From a virus (Duplodnaviria; Heunggongvirae; Uroviricota; Caudoviricetes), in the IMG/VR virus record IMGVR_UViG_3300025326_000020: DNA of 64,000 bases; one strand, written 5' to 3'. The first letter of the stretch is position 1. Every line of letters begins with the position of its first letter. A program made the translations under genes and the position numbers. Shown piece by piece: positions 42,658 to 63,137 of the stretch. The notes under the pieces are model-generated. The model did no database searches and was not told the DNA's origin. It worked only from the letters and a program-made list of their open reading frames with translations.

Positions 42658-43161
42658 TTATTCAAGCACCTTTTCGTATTGCTGTGGAAGTGTCCAACCT
42701 AGCAGTGATAGTCTACGCAGTGAGGTAGCAACCATACCACTACCTTGACCCGTAATTGGTGTATTGCCCATGACCTCTTCCATAATTCTTACGTAGTCAC
42801 GATCAATGATTAGGTATGGCAATAGGTTACTGACAATTACAACCATACCAGCACCAGTAACAGTCCATCGAGCTATTGCTGGAAGATAAAGATTTTCTAC
42901 TGGGACTTCACCTACGTGAGTGTGTGCATGTGGACAATGTTCTGAACATCCACGACGCATAAAATCTCTTACAGGTTGTGGTTTCTTTGCGTCAGCCTTT
43001 AAACCAGTTAGTACGCCAAGCTCTTGAATAACTGCAATCTCTTTACTTTCAACAGATAGTATAATTTGTGGAGTCGCTCGTTGCTTGTTGTGTTTACGCA
43101 GAAATCTTCCTTTTAAATCTATGACTCCTGCCATCCATCCTAGTTTAATATCTGGTATCAT
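42658..43161 (-). CDS. hypothetical protein with a degenerate LAGLIDADG-like motif
   Basis: GWMAGVIDLKGRF near the N-terminus; His/Cys cluster CSEHCPHAHTH. Confidence 0.4.
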   Translation of the reverse strand: MIPDIKLGWMAGVIDLKGRFLRKHNKQRATPQIILSVESKEIAVIQELGVLTGLKADAKKPQPVRDFMRRGCSEHCPHAHTHVGEVPVENLYLPAIARWTVTGAGMVVIVSNLLPYLIIDRDYVRIMEEVMGNTPITGQGSGMVATSLRRLSLLGWTLPQQYEKVLE

Positions 43162-43186
43162 CTTTATTCCTTTTTGTTGTCATGTG

Positions 43187-43261
43187 TACCGACGGTCAGA
43201 CTTGAACTGACAACCACTAACTTATAAGGTTAGCCGCACTGACCAATTGGCGTACGTCGGC
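43187..43261 (-). tRNA. tRNA-Ile (anticodon TAT)
   Basis: acceptor GCCGACG/CGTCGGT; anticodon arm CTAAC-CTTATAA-GTTAG; T-arm GTCAG-TTCAAGT-CTGAC. Confidence 0.6.
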
Positions 43262-44125: not shown

Positions 44126-44413
44126 TTACTTCTTGCAGGTCGGATCATTTGGCACTACGGCAATGGCGCCATAGGGACTGTCACTATGGAAGAGTACATA
44201 CAAACGATTGCCATGATCACACTTAGTGGCCGCATTCGAGAATCCATCAGGCATGACAATAATATCGGCTGATTCAGTATTTTCAGTACCTGATCGTGGA
44301 GCATCGTTAAACGGTTCCTTTGCTTTGGCCCCACAACTAGTGGACAAGGCAACCGCAAGAATCCCAACAATTAGGCAAGCAAATAATGGTAGCAAAGACT
44401 TAATTTTAGTCAC
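44126..44413 (-). CDS. lipoprotein
   Basis: signal peptide with lipobox LSTSC. Confidence 0.55.
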   Translation of the reverse strand: MTKIKSLLPLFACLIVGILAVALSTSCGAKAKEPFNDAPRSGTENTESADIIVMPDGFSNAATKCDHGNRLYVLFHSDSPYGAIAVVPNDPTCKK

Positions 44414-45429
44414 TACTTGCCTCCGGCATTAGCACTAACAAGTACACCGCCACCAGCGGCCAAACATAGACCCGGCGGAACTCCCATCTTAACCGATTCC
44501 TCTATGCACTTGTTTTGTACATAAAGAGGTGTCAAAACCTGGGCTAGAAGGTCAGAAACGGCCTTTTCAGCCAGGGCGTTTGTCTTCTTCTGTGCTAGTA
44601 CTCTAGCCTGCGCGATAACATCCTGGAACTGCTGAATGTTCTTTTCAGTTTGTGCATCATGGTGTACTAGTGGAATGGATACAGTCTTGACATCTACCAG
44701 ACCGTCAAATGCCGTTACCAGCTTGTTCTTAACATCTGTTTGTAGCTGGGTACCATCAAACCCAACCTGACCAGTCTGTAGATTTACCTGAGACAGGGGG
44801 TTATAGGTTGCAAAAACGTCGTTAAGCGCGTTCTGAATAACTGTTTCATACAGATTGTTCTTAACATTATTGAAATCACCCTTGTAGTCAAGGAACAACT
44901 TAGGTGCACCAGTCTCAGTAACCTGTAGCTGGATCCTATTCTCTACACATGCAGTAGCAAGTGAGCCAATACGTACGGTAGTACAACCTTCCTTCCAATT
45001 ACCAAGATGGTTGATTGTGACTACAGACGCATCGAAGTCCTCAACACTCTGCCAAGGCCAAACGAAGTGCAAACCGCTACCTGTGGTGTCTCCAGTAGGA
45101 CGGTTGAACGTGCTAACAATACCAACATTCCGTACTGGCACAGTGTATGCACTAGCAAAGAACATTAATATAGCAGCTAACGAAGCTAGTGCAATTGTTA
45201 CTACCTTAGAGGAATTATGTTCAGCAGCAGCAGCAGATTCCATATCCTTCTTTGATGGGCGATCAACATAAGCTCGATAGTCGCTACTTGCGGTATCTGC
45301 TGCCACAGCCTTATCGTATTCACTTTTTGCCTCAATGAAATCTTTCTTTGCTGATTTCTTCCACAAAAAAGCAAGAACAGCAAGAACAGCAACAGTGATG
45401 CCTAGTACAAATTCCCAGCTCAATTTCAT
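44413..45429 (-). CDS. membrane-anchored SPFH/band-7 domain protein
   Basis: N-terminal transmembrane helix; VRNVGIVSTFNRP...GLHFVWPW resembles the SPFH core. Confidence 0.5.
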   Translation of the reverse strand: MKLSWEFVLGITVAVLAVLAFLWKKSAKKDFIEAKSEYDKAVAADTASSDYRAYVDRPSKKDMESAAAAEHNSSKVVTIALASLAAILMFFASAYTVPVRNVGIVSTFNRPTGDTTGSGLHFVWPWQSVEDFDASVVTINHLGNWKEGCTTVRIGSLATACVENRIQLQVTETGAPKLFLDYKGDFNNVKNNLYETVIQNALNDVFATYNPLSQVNLQTGQVGFDGTQLQTDVKNKLVTAFDGLVDVKTVSIPLVHHDAQTEKNIQQFQDVIAQARVLAQKKTNALAEKAVSDLLAQVLTPLYVQNKCIEESVKMGVPPGLCLAAGGGVLVSANAGGK

Positions 45430-45461
45430 TCCTTAAATAGTTGTCATTTTGACGTGTTACG

Positions 45462-45532
45462 TTCAAGCACCTAGATTCGAACTAAGACTACCATATCCAA
45501 AGTATGGTGGGCTACCCTTACCCCATGCTTGA
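45462..45532 (-). tRNA. tRNA-Gln (anticodon TTG)
   Basis: perfect acceptor TCAAGCA/TGCTTGA; anticodon arm CCATA-CTTTGGA-TATGG; T-arm CTTAG-TTCGAAT-CTAGG. Confidence 0.65.
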
Positions 45533-45710
45533 TTATATTGCAGAGTTAAATGCGGATATAACACGTGCTGGTTTACCATCTTCATTTGGGTCAGACACGC
45601 GTCTAATCGCTTCTGACAAAACACTGTCAGGATCTAACTTCCACAACTCATTGAGTGGAAGCTTAGTTATATCAACCAAACCATCAGGTTGATGTTCCAT
45701 ATGACACTCC

Positions 45711-47533: not shown

Positions 47534-48502
47534 TTATTCTGCGTGTAGTGAGGTGCTATTCAATGCAGCCTTACAAGCTGTAGTCACATCGTCAACAGTT
47601 AGACTGGTTGTTGGCAGCTTTGCGACGATAGCTGCCGCCAATGCTTCGATGTCTATTTCTATTGATTTTTCTGTGTTTAAATATGTACCATTCAACACAC
47701 CTAAAGTGGTCATTTCTGCTGGTATACCACGACCAGCATATTGCCACGGAATAGCCCGAAGTTGAGTTCTAATTATGTCATTGATTTCCTCTTTGCCAAT
47801 TAAGGCTCCAGCAAGAAACTTGTTGAACTCATCCTGTGTCATATTATCCTCCGAAGCGGCAATGAATTCCTGTAGTTGCACAAGCGTACCACGATATGCA
47901 TTGGCATCGCAAGTTGTTTGGTTGCCAATAGTTGTCATAGATCCATACTGTAGAATTTCTACCTTTTTACCTACAACAGGGTTCCAGCGCGAGGATGTGT
48001 CACCAGGGTAAGTCTTCTTATAGTGTGCTGTTGGGTTAGTTCCGTAGTTACTAGACCATAAAGGATACTTTAAATCTTTTAATTTATCGCCGTACAGCCA
48101 CGGGGGCGCGTACGCAAATATCGACGACGCAGGGCTGCCTGTACGGGCCTGCAAGGCCACTCCGAACGCGTTGACTTCCGCTATCGTCGGAGCGCGATCC
48201 ATGTACGGAAACTTCTCAGCATCAATTTGCCATATCCACGATACGTCTTTCCACCATGGTGTTTCAGCATTGACGATCTGTAAAAACCAATCTATCTGGT
48301 CAGTTACCGAGCCAGGATGATTAACATAGTAGGCACCAAGAACAGGAATACCAAGTCCTTTAGCTGCATTGAGTGCGGCTTTGTATTCGCTATCCTTGTA
48401 GCTGTGGTGACCCTCTGCACACTTGTGCGTGTAAAAGTCAATGCCATCTCTGACTGTTGGTGGTGCATCATAGTGACTAGTTTCGATCCCAGCCGTAAAC
48501 GG
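47534..48502 (-). CDS. endolysin, GH25 muramidase N-terminal domain + C-terminal domain; the annotated Met (48202) is internal and the catalytic region extends upstream without a canonical start in frame
   Basis: upstream in-frame translation ...GIETSHYDAPPTVRDGIDFYTHKCAEG...GLGIPVLGAYYV matches GH25 motifs; an ATG at 48504-48506 is in the +1 frame (MTVYGWDRN-stop). Confidence 0.55.
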   Translation of the reverse strand, partial: PFTAGIETSHYDAPPTVRDGIDFYTHKCAEGHHSYKDSEYKAALNAAKGLGIPVLGAYYVNHPGSVTDQIDWFLQIVNAETPWWKDVSWIWQIDAEKFPYMDRAPTIAEVNAFGVALQARTGSPASSIFAYAPPWLYGDKLKDLKYPLWSSNYGTNPTAHYKKTYPGDTSSRWNPVVGKKVEILQYGSMTTIGNQTTCDANAYRGTLVQLQEFIAASEDNMTQDEFNKFLAGALIGKEEINDIIRTQLRAIPWQYAGRGIPAEMTTLGVLNGTYLNTEKSIEIDIEALAAAIVAKLPTTSLTVDDVTTACKAALNSTSLHAE

Positions 48503-48522
48503 TCATGGTGGCATCACCTCTC

Positions 48523-48966
48523 TTAAGATAAGCCTCTGTGCTTATCACGTCTGATTTTAGCACACTTCTTACAAGTGCGCTTGTTCTTACTGTTCATCAG
48601 ATTGTCCTCGGTTAGAGGATGTCCACGCAGACAGAATTCTTTTTCAGAATTTATTTTACTGATACCATGTAAACCTTCGCGTGAAGCGTTGGCATTAATT
48701 GTTTTAGGTTCCATATGATATGGATTACAGCATATCGAGTTGTCGCACAGATGATCGATAACCAAACCATTTGGTATATCACCAATTAATAACTCATATG
48801 CAACACGATGAGCGTAGTAATGAAAACCTCTTAATCTAAAGTCGCCATACCCTTTACCTGCTGAGACTACACTCTTAGTCCAAGGCCAACAACCCTCTGG
48901 ACCAGTGAGATCTACCTTAGACCAAAAGGTAGAAATCTCAATGTACTCAATAGGAAAGGTCGTCAT
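48523..48966 (-). CDS. HNH endonuclease
   Basis: GLVIDHLCDNSICCNPYHMEP HNH core. Confidence 0.65.
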   Translation of the reverse strand: MTTFPIEYIEISTFWSKVDLTGPEGCWPWTKSVVSAGKGYGDFRLRGFHYYAHRVAYELLIGDIPNGLVIDHLCDNSICCNPYHMEPKTINANASREGLHGISKINSEKEFCLRGHPLTEDNLMNSKNKRTCKKCAKIRRDKHRGLS

Positions 48967-48967
48967 C

Positions 48968-49153
48968 CTACTCCTCGCTTGGCGCTGGAGTATGTCTGTT
49001 CCCGTCAGTCAGTACTTTGTGACAATTCACGCAGTCAAAGTAAGTTTCATCTGTTTCGTCTAAAGCTTCTTCTAATGTAATTGCTTTGTCGCCTTCAACT
49101 TCTTCGGTGCATAGAGCATGTAGCTTTGGTTCATCTAGTACATGAATTGTCAT
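48968..49153 (-). CDS. small zinc-ribbon protein
   Basis: CVNCHKV...C. Confidence 0.35.
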   Translation of the reverse strand: MTIHVLDEPKLHALCTEEVEGDKAITLEEALDETDETYFDCVNCHKVLTDGNRHTPAPSEE

Positions 49154-49159
49154 GTGTTA

Positions 49160-49235
49160 CCTCCTTGATTCAGTAGCAAGAATCGAACTTGCACATTGAC
49201 GCCGAGTAACCAGCCGCCTCTTCCATTTGGGCTAT
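49160..49235 (-). ncRNA. tRNA-like element or pseudogene with no foldable anticodon arm
   Basis: perfect acceptor TTCAGTA/TACTGAA and T-arm GCAAG-TTCGATT-CTTGC; 74 nt; central region fails to form a 5-bp/7-nt anticodon arm. Confidence 0.4.
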
Positions 49236-49368
49236 ACTGAACTTAGTAAGTTAAGGTTACTGCTAGCGACCTCCACAGCATACGTACGATACTGACGGAA
49301 CCCATTCGCCTGACCCGTATAGTCCTACTGCCATCGTGCCCGTCGACACTCCCTCACCTTAACTTACG

Positions 49369-49441
49369 CGCGATCGACCGGATTCGAACCGGCATACCCC
49401 ACCTTGACAGGGTGGTTCATTAACCATTATGATACAACCGC
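49369..49441 (-). tRNA. tRNA-Asp (anticodon GTC)
   Basis: acceptor GCGGTTG/CGATCGC (two G-U pairs); D-arm TCATAATGGTTAATGA; anticodon arm CCACC-CTGTCAA-GGTGG; T-arm GCCGG-TTCGAAT-CCGGT. Confidence 0.65.
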
Positions 49442-52631: not shown

Positions 52632-52712
52632 GTGGGTCGGAAGGATTCGAACCTTCATCACCGGCATTGCTGCCCGCTCTACCATTTGAGCTACTAACCC
52701 TCGAACAGCGCA
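52632..52712 (-). ncRNA. tRNA-like element: canonical D-arm and T-arm, GNRA tetraloop hairpin (GGCA-GCAA-TGCC) in place of the anticodon arm, mismatched acceptor; 3' side ends in the CGACCCAC repeat
   Basis: D-arm GCTCAAATGGTAGAGC; T-arm GAAGG-TTCGAAT-CCTTC; no anticodon loop; 5'/3' acceptor strands not complementary. Confidence 0.45.
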
Positions 52713-54434: not shown

Positions 54435-54653
54435 CTAACCCGGGAGACTAGTTGTTATAGTACGTGAATACAATTCATCCAGCCTTGTATCAATAGGACG
54501 CTTGAAATAAAAACGAACACTACCAATGTGGGTTGCGAGTGGATGAGCTGATACCAATTCCCAACCCTGTAGACCTAAAGAATCTAAGATCTCTTGCTGG
54601 TTATCAGGGTGACGAGCAACTTCGGTTTTGTATTCCCACAACACGTGAATCAT
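54435..54653 (-). CDS. small DUF4177-like protein
   Basis: LGLQGWELVS motif; overlaps the rsr stop. Confidence 0.4.
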   Translation of the reverse strand: MIHVLWEYKTEVARHPDNQQEILDSLGLQGWELVSAHPLATHIGSVRFYFKRPIDTRLDELYSRTITTSLPG

Positions 54654-56281
54654 ATGTTACCAGCCGAGAATTGTGATACCAGTGCTGGTAGATTAGCGTC
54701 GCCACCAACTACGTCTAACATTCCACGATCGCTAGGATCTGCAATCGTAAAGTTGGTAGCAGATGCAGCCGCAACAATCAGCTTAGCATCAATACCTGTC
54801 TTCTGTCGGTACTGCTTTATTGCCTGGAATGGATGTACGTCACCAAACCAAGTCTCATTGTCAGTGTATATCATAAAGGTATCGACTGCAATGTTGTGCT
54901 TGGCAGCGTAAAGCATCGGCTGTGCACAATCCGTACGACCAAACGACATACTGTTAGTAATTCGCAGAACATCATCTAGACGCATTCCAGGAGAAATACC
55001 TAGATCCTTCATTACATCTGAGAAACCAAAGGCTAGATAGAATGGCTCAGTCTTAGCAACTGAAAGGACCATTGCCGCACCAAGTTCAGCAGCAGTCAGA
55101 TCTAGTCCTGATGCAGCCTGCTTCATTGAACCAGAAACGTCAAGACCAATGAAGAATCTCTTGTTCGATGGCTCAACATAACTAAAGGACTTGTAGAATG
55201 CATCGTTCAATGCATCCACAATTACTGGTGAAGTTGTCCAGTCCTTAGGCTTATAAGCTGCTGGACCACCGAAGCCCATAGGGTATTTATATCCACCCTG
55301 TGTCTCACGAGCAATTTGACCCTTAGTATGCACCATTAGTGCAAGCAAGAACTGAATAGGGTGTAGTCTGGTCTTCTGAATCATTGTCTCGTTAGTGAGC
55401 GCGGTTGCAATCTCACGAGCGAACACCATATCGTTGAACATACCCAATCTTGCAAAGCGAGTAATGTTACGAACAAGTGCCTGACCAGTGAGCTGTCCAT
55501 TGCGGTAAAGCTGATGCCAGACTCTCGGTTCCTTATGGTACTGAGTTGGCACAACTTCCCATGGTAGACCAGGAACAGCTTCTAGTACATTCAAAAGTTC
55601 TTCAACATTTGGTGCTGCCTGTGCAATCTTAAAACCTGCAACTAGTTGGTGTTCACCACTATCAAAGCCAGTCTTACCAAGGATGAACTCACCAATACCT
55701 GGTACAAAACTGCCCTTAACGTGTGATAGTCTAAACATATCACGATGAGTCCAACCGTCGCGCTGGCGATACTTAACCGCCTGGTAGGCTAGCTGGTCTG
55801 GCGTCTTGTGGGTGTACCAGTCAGCTACCGCACGGCGCTTGGTCTTGCCCCAACCACCACCACCGTAATAAGTTCCTAGGTACTTTGCGAACTCATACAG
55901 CATAGTAGATGTACGGCACACACGCTGCACCAAGCTAGATAGGTCACGCTTCTTACCATATTTACCAAGTGCCGCCACTACAAAGACAGCGTACTTGTTA
56001 CGGAAAGCACGACCAGATTCTGAAACTTCCAGAACTGTGTCAATAACTAGCTGCTCATCACGATCAATTAGATCAATTAGGAAGTTCACGTTTTCACGTG
56101 TAAGAGGCTTCTCATCCTGGTAGTAGGTACCTTTCTCAGTACCAACAATTAGGAATCTTTCAAGTCTAACCTTGTCTGATACAGCGAAGACAAACCCACC
56201 AGCATTGTTCTTAACCTGATCTAGTCGAGCCTGCTCACGCTGTGTTGATGCAGTAAGGCTGCGAGAAAATACGTCACTCAT
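54650..56281 (-). CDS. rsr: Ro60/Rsr orthologue (TROVE domain + C-terminal vWA domain)
   Basis: N-terminal VRLERFLIVGTEKGTYY aligns with the human Ro60 RLHRFLCFGSEGGTYY region; C-terminal vWA with MIDAS FFIGLDVSGSM; 543 aa, typical Ro60 size. Confidence 0.8.
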   Translation of the reverse strand: MSDVFSRSLTASTQREQARLDQVKNNAGGFVFAVSDKVRLERFLIVGTEKGTYYQDEKPLTRENVNFLIDLIDRDEQLVIDTVLEVSESGRAFRNKYAVFVVAALGKYGKKRDLSSLVQRVCRTSTMLYEFAKYLGTYYGGGGWGKTKRRAVADWYTHKTPDQLAYQAVKYRQRDGWTHRDMFRLSHVKGSFVPGIGEFILGKTGFDSGEHQLVAGFKIAQAAPNVEELLNVLEAVPGLPWEVVPTQYHKEPRVWHQLYRNGQLTGQALVRNITRFARLGMFNDMVFAREIATALTNETMIQKTRLHPIQFLLALMVHTKGQIARETQGGYKYPMGFGGPAAYKPKDWTTSPVIVDALNDAFYKSFSYVEPSNKRFFIGLDVSGSMKQAASGLDLTAAELGAAMVLSVAKTEPFYLAFGFSDVMKDLGISPGMRLDDVLRITNSMSFGRTDCAQPMLYAAKHNIAVDTFMIYTDNETWFGDVHPFQAIKQYRQKTGIDAKLIVAAASATNFTIADPSDRGMLDVVGGDANLPALVSQFSAGNI

Positions 56282-62359: not shown

Positions 62360-62445
62360 CCGCAAAGGTGGAGAGATTCGAACTCTCATAATCGGTTTTG
62401 GAGACCAATCAGCACAACCTACGCTCACCGATAAGGTGGCCATCC
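62360..62445 (-). ncRNA. tRNA-like structured element (T-arm GAGAG-TTCGAAT-CTCTC plus long-range 8-bp helix TAATCGGT/ACCGATTA)
   Basis: no canonical cloverleaf. Confidence 0.3.
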
Positions 62446-62915: not shown

Positions 62916-63050
62916 GTACGCCCACCAACATTCTACAGCGTAAAGCTTGACAGGCTTCATATGCTTATGAATGGTAGGTAAAGGCAGGTCTCCATAAACC
63001 CTACGTTGCTCACTGCCTCTTTGCCCGTCACGGCATACCAACAGTGCATG

Positions 63051-63137
63051 TACCATCGGTAGGACTCGAACCTACATACCGTACAGCCGTCGCTGGCCTG
63101 CTAATACGCAGGTGCTCTGCCATTGAGCTACGATGGT
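63051..63137 (-). ncRNA. type-II tRNA-like gene with aberrant 6/8-nt anticodon loop (GTATTA)
   Basis: perfect acceptor ACCATCG/CGATGGT; D-arm GCTCAATGGCAGAGC; stem CCTGC/GCAGG; 21-nt variable region; T-arm GTAGG-TTCGAGT-CCTAC; 87 nt. Confidence 0.4.

What the first reader, a model, noticed from the sequence alone, without database searches (positions are those of the whole stretch)
47534..48506. GH25 endolysin lacks an in-frame start: catalytic N-terminus is in a different frame from the only upstream ATG
The GH25 motifs (GIETSHYDA, DGIDFYTHKCAEG, GLGIPVLGAYYV) lie upstream of the annotated Met. That frame hits a stop at 48503-48505 without any ATG, GTG or TTG. An ATG at 48504-48506 opens a +1-frame peptide MTVYGWDRN-stop that also resembles a GH25 start. 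This suggests an authentic +1 frameshift near 48480-48490, an indel error, or a recently inactivated lysin.
Basis: seen in the sequence. Interest (0 to 1): 0.5.

Follow-up and report, generated by a model that had tools for sequence, protein, structure and literature searches.

The report
Frame-split lysin start beside homing endonuclease
A phage gene for a cell-wall-cutting enzyme has its first seven codons in a different reading frame from the rest because of four extra bases. It sits next to a selfish endonuclease gene, and the same arrangement recurs in distant relatives, so the ribosome may have to skip bases to make the enzyme.

Summary
On the minus strand, ATG 48506 opens MTVYGWDRN-stop. 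The 322-codon GH25 frame (48502-47534) is +1 to it and has no ATG/GTG/TTG before 48202. In 92/92 homologues that matched the motif, the start reads M-T-[IV]-[FY]-G-W-D-x-S-H-Y-D. The window therefore carries 4 extra nt (CGAA, 48485-48482) after the catalytic Asp codon.

It is not an assembly error. Three assemblies give identical sequence, and no intact allele appeared among the homologues found.

- A second ATG (48514) lies in the GH25 frame but is closed by TGA 48505-48503 (MPP*).
- The same 15-nt GGTGATGCCACCATG + GGCTGGGAT + 4 nt cassette occurs in four other lysins. They share only 42-65% identity with the window and one another, and each has closer normal relatives.
- An HNH homing-endonuclease gene lies directly upstream. 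In relatives, the same HNH family has inserted into the lysin 5' end, duplicating its first nine codons.

Best reading (about 0.4): an endonuclease-linked coding gap that requires net +1 recoding. This could be a +1 shift or a 4-nt hop, GAU to GAA, resembling T4 gene 60/MobA.

Main rivals: a dead, tolerated lysin (about 0.33), and a start at 48514 with UGA read-through (about 0.15).

The parts
48523..48966 (-). HNH homing-endonuclease gene (147 aa), ending 16 nt before the lysin ATG 48506
   Evidence: Pfam HNH_3 4.3e-11; phrog_826 3.5e-39. It is absent from the syntenic position in the related 183-kb contig L095 and in L215. It is 41% identical (6e-38) to the HNH that sits inside the lysin 5' end of L063.
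48504..48518 (-). Conserved 15-mer GGTGATGCCACCATG: Shine-Dalgarno-like GGTGAT, 6-nt spacer GCCACC, and ATG of frame A. It also contains ATG 48514-48512 of frame B.
   Evidence: Invariant in the window, L215, L005 and L187 (alignment A3). Absent upstream of about 65 normal-form relatives. Unique in the window.
48503..48514 (-). Frame-B mini-ORF ATG CCA CCA TGA (MPP*). The TGA at 48505-48503 overlaps ATG 48506.
   Evidence: Relatives L005 and L187 and protein P0024 read MPPC... here (TGC/TGT in the two with DNA). L215 has the same TGA.
48477..48506 (-). Frame-A ORF ATG ACC GTT TAC GGC TGG GAT CGA AAC TAG = MTVYGWDRN*. It holds the family N-terminus and the catalytic Asp codon GAT 48488-48486.
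   Evidence: family N-termini; GwDaSh aligns with GIDVSxW of solved GH25 enzymes.
48482..48485 (-). Four extra nucleotides (CGAA) between the Asp codon GAT and the x-Ser-His-Tyr-Asp codons (ACT AGT CAC TAT GAT). This is the candidate coding gap or shift site.
   Evidence: The D-x-S spacing is exactly one residue in 92/92 homologues. Equivalent inserts: TGAA in L005, TGAC in L187, TGTC in L215, and HGAY inferred for P0024. L094 compared with L005 shows the 4-nt difference directly.
47534..48502 (-). GH25 reading frame (frame B): 322 codons plus TAA, with no canonical start before 48202
   Evidence: structure.
47858..48502 (-). GH25 catalytic barrel (residues 1-215 of the frame-B product)
   Evidence: pLDDT 96-99. 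Foldseek top 17 hits are all GH25 (2X8R 5.9e-11, 1JFX 7.6e-11, 4KRU, Cpl-1).
48215..48223 (-). D-x-E catalytic motif (GAT GCT GAG; D94, E96 of IDAEKF)
   Evidence: Invariant columns D94 and E96 in the 97-sequence alignment A1. It lies upstream of ATG 48202.
47534..48202 (-). The 222-aa ORF that gene callers report. It lacks strands beta1-4, the N-terminal Asp and the DxE motif, so it cannot be an active muramidase.
   Evidence: secondary structure.
47537..47857 (-). C-terminal about 107 residues of unknown function (putative wall-binding or linker region), partly low confidence
   Evidence: pLDDT 44-61 for residues 220-280. The C-termini of homologues are not conserved.
48968..49153 (-). Conserved 61-aa upstream ORF. 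It serves as the synteny anchor showing that the HNH is an insertion between it and the lysin.
   Evidence: tblastx to L095 5647-5751 and L215 744-851.

Best explanation
The lysin's 5' end has been rebuilt by a homing-endonuclease cassette, and the enzyme can only be made by non-standard decoding.

Shown:
- An HNH endonuclease gene sits between a conserved upstream ORF and the lysin.
- It is followed by a conserved 15-nt ribosome-binding and start module (GGTGATGCCACCATG), seven family-typical codons (MTVYGWD, including the catalytic Asp), and then 4 extra nt (CGAA). These put the remaining 315 codons in the +1 frame.
- The same module plus a 4-nt insert at the same position occurs in four other lysins. 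They share only 42-65% identity with the window and one another, and each has closer normal relatives.
- In relatives, HNH genes of the same family are inserted inside the lysin 5' end. They carry off its first nine codons and supply a re-coded duplicate.

Inferred:
- The 4-nt insert protects the carrier genome's own lysin sequence from the endonuclease, and perhaps from repeat-mediated loss of the cassette.
- Ribosomes start at ATG 48506 (optimal SD spacing), read MTVYGWD, and at GAU-CGA make a net +1 move.
- The version that restores the exact family sequence is a 4-nt forward slide of peptidyl-tRNA-Asp from GAU (48488-48486) to GAA (48484-48482). Decoding then resumes at ACU, giving MTVYGWDTSHYDA...
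- A plain +1 shift would give GWD-E-T-SHYD or GWD-R-N-SHYD, with one extra residue.
- Efficiency is probably low, so the arrangement would also throttle lysin output.
For: - Real sequence, fixed allele: identical in three assemblies and held by four source collections, with no intact allele among the homologues found.
- The insertion is 4 nt at the D|x junction. The D-x-S spacing is invariant in 92/92 homologues. Skipping CGAA gives WDTSHYD, as in P0001.
- Recurrence: L005, L187 (a Planosporangium thailandense isolate genome), L215 and P0024 share the cassette. GH25-domain identity among them is only 42-65%, while each has normal relatives at 61-90%.
- The 15-mer is present in 3/3 relatives that were found through a frame anomaly, and in 0 of about 65 normal relatives.
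- The first 30 nt are 80-97% identical between these genes, against 30-80% for the rest of the gene.
- Frame B is closed by the same TGA in the window and L215. In L215 frame B would put Val at the catalytic Asp position, whereas frame A keeps GAT in all four with DNA.
- SD GGTGAT lies 6 nt from ATG(A) but 0-2 nt from ATG(B).
- In the high-GC copies, third-position GC follows frame A up to GAT and frame B afterwards. I read this directly from the sequences.
- All five interrupted genes keep intact downstream ORFs of about 320-400 codons.
- Endonuclease link: the window HNH is an insertion relative to L095 and L215. Among 70 family loci, its only homologue is in L063, directly upstream of another +1-disrupted lysin (TTT TGA C) and fused to a duplicate of the lysin's first nine codons. 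L251 shows the same fusion with an intact, re-coded lysin copy. P0024 has an Endonuclease_7 gene abutting it.
- A second +1 'shifty stop' type (UUU UGA C) recurs in L063 and L217.
- Precedent: in T4 gene 60/MobA, an insert blocks self-cleavage by the endonuclease and is bypassed by the ribosome. That system has a stop or hungry codon after take-off, matched take-off and landing codons, cassettes retained after endonuclease loss, and endonuclease swapping (PMC5009743).
Against: - There is no experimental or expression evidence.
- No canonical slippery sequence exists at GAU CGA in the window. CGA is not rare in this phage (7.9 per 1000).
- In the window and L215 the frame-A stop is not adjacent to GAU, unlike the GAU UGA of L005 and L187.
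- Landing codons match GAU only 2/3 in three of five cases.
- The predicted helix GAUGCCACC/GGCUGGGAUY has no covariation and is weak (-6.6 kcal/mol). Single-sequence folds are not better than shuffles.
- Three cassette copies (L005, L187, P0024) have frame B open from ATG(B) and regenerate the canonical G-I-[D/E]-x-S motif. They need no recoding, which suggests the cassette may be designed for frame-B translation, and the window copy then simply carries a nonsense codon.
- Only part of the genome is visible, so a second lysin could make this gene dispensable.
- All copies of the window allele are identical, so selection on it cannot be measured.
Confidence: 0.4

Rival explanations
1. The lysin is non-functional. 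The 4-nt insertion, together with TGA in the other frame, is collateral damage or an immunity mutation left by the homing endonuclease. It is tolerated because the large phage has another lysin, or because lysin can be supplied in trans in mixed infections while the endonuclease drives its own spread.
For: - No canonical route to the full protein exists in either frame.
- No convincing slippery site, and CGA is not rare.
- Large relatives such as Gordonia phage Pupper carry the glycosidase domain as a separate lysin gene, so redundancy is plausible.
- L215 has Val at the catalytic position in frame B, which could be decay.
- Manning and Atkins consider that MobA elements may be mildly deleterious parasites.
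Against: - The 322-codon ORF has no further lesion. All catalytic motifs and a confident GH25 fold are retained.
- The same TGA-bearing module sits in two lysins only about 51% identical (window and L215), both otherwise intact. L215 has no adjacent endonuclease to drive a dead allele.
- The allele is the only one seen for this phage, in several datasets.
- No second lysin was found in the ORFs tested across the window.
Confidence: 0.33
2. Translation starts at the frame-B ATG 48514 (MPP...). The in-frame UGA 48505-48503 is read through, or hopped from CCA to CCG. The product is MPP(x)PFTAGIETSHYDA..., in which G-I-E replaces G-W-D.
For: - L005, L187 and P0024 have this frame open with Cys at the UGA position, and regenerate the canonical GH25 G-I-[D/E]-x-S motif.
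- The ATG(B)-CCA-CC sequence is conserved in all copies.
- UGA followed by C is the leakiest bacterial stop context, and CCA UGA CCG has matched flanking Pro codons (established knowledge; stop-hopping is covered in PMC5009743).
- In L215 and P0024 the upstream gene's stop overlaps ATG(B) as TGATG, which suggests translational coupling.
Against: - SD GGTGAT abuts ATG(B) (0-2 nt) but is ideally spaced for ATG(A).
- In L215 this reading gives G-I-V, which lacks the catalytic acid.
- Glu in place of the near-invariant Asp is untested.
- There is no opal-suppressor tRNA among the 27 tRNAs and no sign of TGA reassignment. TGA ends 9 of 24 long ORFs, and recoding any stop lengthens ORFs equally.
- High-GC copies show AT-rich third positions in frame B upstream of the insert.
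Confidence: 0.15
3. A sequencing or assembly indel: the true genome has one continuous ORF from ATG 48506.
For: A single window sequence cannot exclude this on its own, and metagenomic assemblies do contain errors.
Against: - Contigs built by two different pipelines from at least three accessions are 100% identical over 4-6.7 kb.
- The insert is 4 nt and is not a homopolymer.
- The same architecture is present in an isolate genome and three other assemblies.
Confidence: 0.02
4. The HNH gene lies in a self-splicing group I intron (or the code is reassigned), so the mature message is in frame.
For: Phage lysin genes interrupted by HNH-bearing group I introns are known in Streptococcus and Staphylococcus phages (my own knowledge). 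The HNH ORF begins MTTF, like some lysins of the family.
Against: - No intron family matched, even at E<=5, over 48250-49250, nor at gathering threshold over 38-64 kb.
- A complete second SD+ATG+MTVYGWD copy downstream is not an intron feature.
- L063 and L251 show duplication of exon sequence, not splicing boundaries.
- All three stop codons are used as stops.
Confidence: 0.02

Closest known systems
T4 gene 60 translational bypass cassette carried by the MobA homing-endonuclease element
   Same: An endonuclease element repeatedly inserts at one place in a conserved phage gene. It brings a re-coded duplicate of the flanking coding sequence plus a non-coding insert that interrupts the frame. 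A stop or slow codon follows the take-off codon. Take-off and landing codons are similar (GAU, then GAA/GAC). Cassettes persist without the endonuclease (L005, L187, L215). Different endonuclease types accompany the same cassette (HNH_3 here, Endonuclease_7 at P0024).
   Different: The gap is 4 nt rather than 50 nt. It lies at codon 7-8 rather than 46-47, so no long nascent peptide signal is possible. No take-off stem-loop was found. The target is an endolysin rather than a topoisomerase, the hosts are actinobacteria, and nothing has been shown experimentally.
prfB (RF2) programmed +1 frameshift, CUU UGA C ('shifty stop')
   Same: A net +1 move is needed at a codon followed by UGA in L005 and L187 (GAU UGA A/C), and at UUU UGA C in L063 and L217. 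The +1-frame codon after the shift is GAN, as in prfB (GAC).
   Different: The window has CGA, not UGA, after GAU. tRNA-Asp cannot re-pair at +1 (AUC). There is no internal Shine-Dalgarno element 3 nt upstream. The site lies seven codons from the start.
Free-standing HNH homing endonucleases of phages (intronless homing, e.g. T-even Mob/Seg, and MobE splitting nrdA)
   Same: A small HNH ORF is wedged next to or inside a conserved gene, is absent from syntenic relatives, and is flanked by polymorphic sequence.
   Different: Here the endonuclease takes over the host gene's start and first codons (L063, L251), and the host gene's replacement 5' end is frame-interrupted in two of three junctions.
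GH25 muramidase endolysins (Cpl-1, cellosyl 1JFX, phiSM101 Psm 4KRU, actinophage Lysin A glycosidase domain)
   Same: Same fold, same DxE motif, and same N-terminal G-x-D-x-S motif. Nearest annotated phages are Gordonia and Mycobacterium 'lysin A, glycosyl hydrolase domain' genes.
   Different: The N-terminal catalytic Asp and the rest of the barrel are in different frames. The C-terminal domain is unrelated to known wall-binding modules.
Phage lysin genes interrupted by group I introns carrying HNH ORFs
   Same: An HNH ORF interrupts or abuts the 5' part of a lysin gene.
   Different: No intron RNA was detected. A duplicated start module is present instead of splice sites.

Membership tests
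GH25 muramidase (Pfam PF01183) | Sequence match to the family model | tested here: met
   A direct Pfam scan of the 322-aa frame-B product gave no PF01183 hit at E<=0.01. However, many of the 120 listed homologues carry PF01183, and a profile of 97 family members hits GH25 structures 4KRU (3.6e-10), 1JFX (1.4e-9) and 2X8R (2.7e-8). phrog_3084 endolysin scored 1.8e-19.
GH25 muramidase (Pfam PF01183) | (beta/alpha)-barrel fold of GH25 | tested here: met
   AlphaFold model with pLDDT 96-99 over residues 1-210. The top 17 Foldseek PDB hits are all GH25 (2X8R 5.9e-11, 1JFX 7.6e-11, 4KRU, 4JZ5, LytC, Cpl-1).
GH25 muramidase (Pfam PF01183) | Catalytic D-x-E motif | tested here: met
   IDAEKF; D94 and E96 are invariant in alignment A1; codons at 48223-48215.
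GH25 muramidase (Pfam PF01183) | N-terminal catalytic Asp (G-[IW]-D-x-S) in the same polypeptide as the barrel, reached from a start codon | tested here: not met
   GAT (48488-48486) is in frame A, and the barrel is in frame B, which has Glu at that column and no usable start. This feature is met only if recoding occurs.
Programmed +1 ribosomal frameshift (prfB/antizyme type) | Slow or stop codon in the A site at the shift position | tested here: inconclusive
   UGA follows GAU in L005 and L187, and follows UUU in L063 and L217. The window has CGA, which is not rare (7.9 per 1000). L215 has UGU.
Programmed +1 ribosomal frameshift (prfB/antizyme type) | P-site tRNA able to re-pair in the +1 frame, or a stimulatory SD 3 nt upstream | tested here: not met
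   GAU to AUC gives no pairing. No SD-like element lies at the prfB spacing (sequence). This feature is met for the UUU UGA C type in L063 and L217 only.
Programmed +1 ribosomal frameshift (prfB/antizyme type) | Conservation of the site across diverged sequences with both ORFs intact | tested here: met
   Five lineages with GGCTGGGAT + 4 nt and intact downstream ORFs.
Translational bypass/hop (T4 gene 60 type) | Matched take-off and landing codons flanking a non-coding gap | tested here: inconclusive
   Take-off is GAU in the four with DNA (inferred for P0024). Landing is GAA, GAA, GAC, GAY and GUC, giving 2/3 to 3/3 matches. Skipping exactly 4 nt restores the family's D-x-S in all five.
Translational bypass/hop (T4 gene 60 type) | Nascent-peptide signal and take-off stem-loop | tested here: not met
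   Only seven residues are made before the site. No supported local hairpin: z-scores range from -2.1 to 0, and the consensus helix has no covariation.
Translational bypass/hop (T4 gene 60 type) | Demonstrated single polypeptide from two frames | not testable with these tools
   Needs a reporter assay or mass spectrometry.
Free-standing HNH homing endonuclease element | HNH/His-Me nuclease domain | tested here: met
   HNH_3 4.3e-11; phrog_826 3.5e-39.
Free-standing HNH homing endonuclease element | Presence/absence polymorphism at a fixed site between syntenic genomes | tested here: met
   The conserved 61-aa ORF and the lysin flank the HNH in the window, but flank unrelated small ORFs in L095 and L215. 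The same HNH family lies at the lysin 5' end in L063 and L251 and nowhere else among 70 family loci.
Free-standing HNH homing endonuclease element | Cleavage of the endonuclease-free allele and immunity of the carrier allele | not testable with these tools
   Needs an in vitro cleavage assay on lysin 5' ends with and without the 4-nt insert.

The most novel reading that the evidence does not exclude
A mobile 'mini-bypass' cassette. A roughly 40-nt module (SD, GCCACC, ATG, codons 2-7, and a 4-nt gap) travels with, and outlives, homing endonucleases that target the conserved 5' end of actinophage GH25 lysin genes. The 4-nt gap blocks self-cleavage. It is crossed by peptidyl-tRNA-Asp sliding from GAU to the GAA/GAC four bases ahead, restoring the exact family protein. 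This would be a second natural family of endonuclease-linked translational bypassing after T4 gene 60. It would have the shortest known programmed hop, acting seven codons from the start and probably timing or limiting lysin synthesis.
Probability: 0.25. Interest if true: 0.85.

Novelty: new variant of a known kind. Interest (0 to 1): 0.62.

Why it matters
If recoding occurs, this would be an independent natural counterpart of the T4 gene 60/MobA system. It would link a selfish endonuclease, a protective coding gap and ribosome hopping or frameshifting in an essential lysis gene. It occurs in uncultured actinophages and in one cultured actinomycete genome. It would also offer a very small, easily tested recoding signal.

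Even if the lysin is dead, three points stand:
- HNH genes repeatedly invade the first nine codons of GH25 lysins and rebuild the gene's start.
- A 40-nt start module moves between lysins that share only 42-65% protein identity with one another.
- Gene callers report such lysins as 222-aa catalytic-dead fragments, or with artificial MPPC N-termini. This affects lysin mining for enzybiotics.

Tried and rejected
- Near-identical DNA in cultured phages: none. The cassette is also absent from INPHARED at blastn sensitivity.
- Assembly error: rejected.
- General stop-codon reassignment: rejected. Recoding TGA, TAG or TAA lengthens ORFs equally, all three are used as stops, and there is no suppressor tRNA.
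- Group I intron or other Rfam element around the HNH: none, even at E<=5.
- Hungry CGA codon: not supported.
- A stimulatory RNA structure. The consensus helix GAUGCCACC/GGCUGGGAUY exists, but both arms are invariant, so there is no covariation and the energies are unremarkable.
- A second lysin in the window: none among 20 ORFs tested.
- More cassette copies by pattern scans. IMG/VR gave none. The JGI metagenome scan gave 25 unrelated hits. The GTDB scan gave 112 hits, of which only L187 is a lysin; L137 shares the 15-mer by chance.
- A protein search with a short N-terminal alignment returned nothing and cost one search.
- Truncated homologues P0063 and P0098 turned out to be ordinary genes with miscalled GTG/TTG starts. 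DNA for P0024 and P0096 was unavailable.
- Hidden HNH remnants upstream of L215, L005, L187 and L217: none.
- Literature searches found no report of recoding in a lysin gene.
Full report
**What is in the sequence.** The gene lies on the minus strand. From the HNH stop codon TAA (48525-48523) the DNA reads GAGAGGTGATGCCACC ATG ACC GTT TAC GGC TGG GAT CGA AAC TAG TCA CTA TGA.
- Frame A starts at ATG 48506 and gives MTVYGWDRN-stop, with TAG at 48479-48477.
- Frame B is +1 to frame A. It is closed by TGA 48505-48503, then stays open for 322 codons (PFTAGIETSHYDAPPTVRDGIDFYTHKCAEGHH...) to TAA 47536-47534.
- The first ATG/GTG/TTG in frame B is ATG 48202.

One thing was missed: immediately upstream, frame B reads GTG ATG(48514-48512) CCA CCA TGA. 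Frame B thus has an ATG, followed by an in-frame stop at codon 4.

**It is a GH25 muramidase.** A direct Pfam scan did not reach PF01183, but other evidence is clear.
- PHROG endolysin families match (phrog_3084, 1.8e-19).
- Many of the 120 listed homologues carry PF01183.
- A profile of 97 family members hits solved GH25 enzymes (4KRU 3.6e-10, cellosyl 1JFX 1.4e-9). The family motif G-W-D-x-S-H aligns with their G-I-D-V-S-x-W.
- An AlphaFold model has pLDDT 96-99 over residues 1-210, and its top 17 PDB matches are all GH25.
- The DxE motif (D94, E96; 48223-48215) is invariant in the alignment.
- The 222-aa ORF that gene callers report from ATG 48202 lacks strands 1-4, the N-terminal Asp and DxE. 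It cannot be an active enzyme.

**Nature of the lesion.** In 92 of 92 homologues that matched the motif, the protein starts M-T-[IVT]-[FY]-G-W-D-x-S-H-[YF]-D, with exactly one residue between D and S.
- The window has GAT, then seven nucleotides (CGAAACT), then AGT CAC TAT GAT. That is 4 extra nt.
- Removing CGAA (48485-48482) gives MTVYGWDTSHYDAPP, the same WDTSHYD as the closest homologue P0001.

**Not an error.**
- Contigs from Logan SRR3989430, ENA ERZ27254873 and ERZ27254844 are 100% identical to the window over 4.2-6.7 kb, including the site.
- The truncated ORF is held by JGI, Logan, ENA and MetaClust.
- The best full-length homologue found in the 5.8-billion-protein collection is only 64% identical, so no intact allele of this lysin was seen.

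**The same architecture recurs.** I found four further lysins with the same 5' end.

| Source | Frame A | Frame B |
|---|---|---|
| L005 (encodes P0069) | GGTGATGCCACC ATG CCG ATT TTC GGC TGG GAT TGA = MPIFGWD* | MPPCRFSAGIEASHFD, open |
| L187 (Planosporangium thailandense isolate genome) | ...ATG TCG ATC TTC GGC TGG GAT TGA = MSIFGWD* | MPPCRSSAGIDASDYD, open |
| L215 (encodes P0023) | 33 nt identical to the window, then GAT TGT CCA AAG TCA CTA TGA | MPP*PFTAGIVQSHYD |
| P0024 (protein only) | not available | MPPCPTLTSRSSAGIDASHYD |

- P0024's N-terminus is the +1-frame reading of the start of its 90%-identical relative P0025.
- In all four with DNA, GGTGATGCCACCATG and GGCTGGGAT are invariant. 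Four extra nt follow GAT: CGAA, TGAA, TGAC and TGTC.
- These genes do not form a clade. GH25-domain identity among them is 42-65%, while each has normal-form relatives at 61-90%.
- None of about 65 normal relatives has the GCCACC spacer.
- The first 30 nt are 80-97% identical between these genes, against 30-80% elsewhere.

The 5' module therefore has its own history, separate from the gene bodies.

A second kind of +1 interruption, CAC/GAC TTT TGA CGC CCC (a UUU UGA C 'shifty stop' made by one extra T), occurs at codon 11-12 in L063 and L217.

**The endonuclease link.**
- The 147-aa ORF at 48523-48966 is an HNH endonuclease (HNH_3 4.3e-11; phrog_826 3.5e-39).
- Synteny with the related 183-kb contig L095, and with L215, shows the same 61-aa ORF upstream and the lysin downstream. 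Different, unrelated small ORFs lie in between. The HNH is therefore an insertion.
- Among 70 family loci, the only homologue of this HNH (41% identity, 6e-38) is in L063. There it lies directly upstream of the other kind of interrupted lysin.
- The L063 HNH ORF begins GTG ACG ATC TTC GGC TGG GAC ATG TCC (VTIFGWDMS). This is a copy of the lysin's first nine codons. A second, synonymously altered copy with its own SD starts the lysin downstream.
- Searching IMG/VR for HNH relatives gave a third junction, L251. Its HNH begins MTIFGSDIS, the native lysin start. The downstream lysin copy is intact but heavily re-coded (ATT TTT GGT AAT GAT TGT), and the HNH stop overlaps its ATG.
- P0024 has an Endonuclease_7 ORF abutting its start.

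These endonucleases therefore invade the very conserved 5' end of the lysin ORF, take its start signals, and supply a replacement start whose DNA differs from the target.

**How it most likely works.** The closest precedent is the T4 gene 60/MobA element (Manning and Atkins preprint; Atkins et al. 2016).
- The element's insert blocks self-cleavage by the endonuclease and is bypassed by ribosomes.
- A stop or hungry codon follows the take-off codon, and the take-off and landing codons match.
- The cassette survives loss of the endonuclease, and different endonucleases can accompany it.

The parallels here are as follows.
- The take-off codon is GAU in every copy with DNA.
- The next codon is UGA (L005, L187), CGA (window) or UGU (L215).
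- The codon four bases ahead is GAA, GAA, GAC, GAY or GUC.
- Skipping exactly four bases restores the family's G-W-D-x-S-H in all five.
- Three cassette copies lack an adjacent endonuclease.
- HNH_3 accompanies the cassette in the window and Endonuclease_7 at P0024.

I therefore favour this route: initiation at ATG 48506, which has the ideal 6-nt spacing from GGTGAT, followed by a net +1 event at GAU-CGA. A 4-nt slide of peptidyl-tRNA-Asp is the sub-variant that yields a canonical enzyme. A simple +1 shift would add one residue between D and S, which no homologue tolerates.

Further support for frame A being read up to GAT:
- The window and L215 share a TGA that closes frame B.
- L215 would have Val at the catalytic position in frame B.
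- In the high-GC copies, GC-rich third positions follow frame A before the insert and frame B after it (read from the sequences).

All of this is inference. Nothing here measures translation.

**Rivals.**
1. A dead gene tolerated because of redundancy or endonuclease drive.
   - For: there is no clean slippery site, and CGA is common.
   - Against: five interrupted genes have no secondary lesions, and the TGA-bearing module is fixed in two very different lysins, one with no endonuclease nearby.
2. A start at ATG 48514 with UGA read-through, or a CCA-to-CCG stop-hop.
   - For: three relatives have this frame open and regenerate the canonical G-I-[D/E] motif.
   - Against: the SD abuts this ATG, L215 would lose the catalytic acid, and there is no suppressor tRNA or code change.
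3. Assembly error, intron splicing or code reassignment. All are rejected.

**Verdict.** The finding is real and more interesting than first described. It is a homing-endonuclease-remodelled, frame-split lysin start belonging to a recurrent, mobile 5' cassette. Whether ribosomes cross the 4-nt gap is unproven. I put net +1 recoding from ATG 48506 at about 0.4, a non-functional gene at about 0.33 and read-through from ATG 48514 at about 0.15. A small reporter experiment would settle it.

Noticed in passing
window 39018-63267 (minus strand): A dense array of 27 tRNA genes is interleaved with small ORFs and HNH genes. It includes tRNA-Asp(GTC) at 49368-49441 just upstream of the lysin region, and unusual anticodons Ser(ACT) at 49167-49241 and Ile(TAT) at 43186-43261.
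   Followed up: partly
window 63050-63137 (-): A tRNA-like gene (Rfam 50 bits) has a 6-nt anticodon loop GTATTA and a long variable arm. ARAGORN cannot assign an anticodon. It could be a pseudogene or a non-standard decoder.
   Followed up: partly
window 62363-62421 (-) and 52633-52700 (-): Two further tRNA-like elements are seen only by Rfam. The first scores exactly the gathering threshold (29.0 bits), has a CUCCAAA loop (Trp anticodon CCA) on an 8-bp stem and has no D arm. The second has a degenerate anticodon arm.
   Followed up: partly
window 54650-56281 (-): A 543-aa protein matches phrog_850 'RNA-binding protein' (7e-80). The syntenic relative L095 carries TROVE/vWA_Ro60 domains, so this is a Ro60-like protein encoded by a tRNA-rich phage.
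   Followed up: no
L063 1470-1510 and L217 940-990: Two unrelated lysins of the family carry an identical one-base interruption, TTT TGA CGC CCC (UUU UGA C), at codon 11-12. This is a textbook +1 shifty stop. L063 also has the HNH inserted in the lysin 5' end.
   Followed up: partly
L251 1924-2480: The HNH ORF starts with the lysin's own first nine codons (MTIFGSDIS). The downstream lysin copy is intact but re-coded at almost every codon, and its ATG overlaps the HNH stop (ATGA). This is a clean example of an endonuclease capturing a host gene's start.
   Followed up: yes
L187 5800-6040 (Planosporangium thailandense NZ_JAATVY010000008.1): The cassette-bearing GH25 gene sits in an isolate's chromosome between a GGDEF-type membrane protein and a transporter-like ORF. 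It is preceded by tandem CACACCACAGGGCC-like repeats, and frame B stays open far upstream.
   Followed up: no
window 44413-45670 (-): A Band_7/SPFH-like protein (phrog_200) and a 55-aa FxSxx-COOH ORF lie downstream of the lysin, syntenic with L095. They are possible lysis-associated membrane proteins.
   Followed up: no
window 42658-43161 (-): A second, weak HNH-like ORF (phrog_5046, 4e-5) lies within the tRNA array.
   Followed up: no
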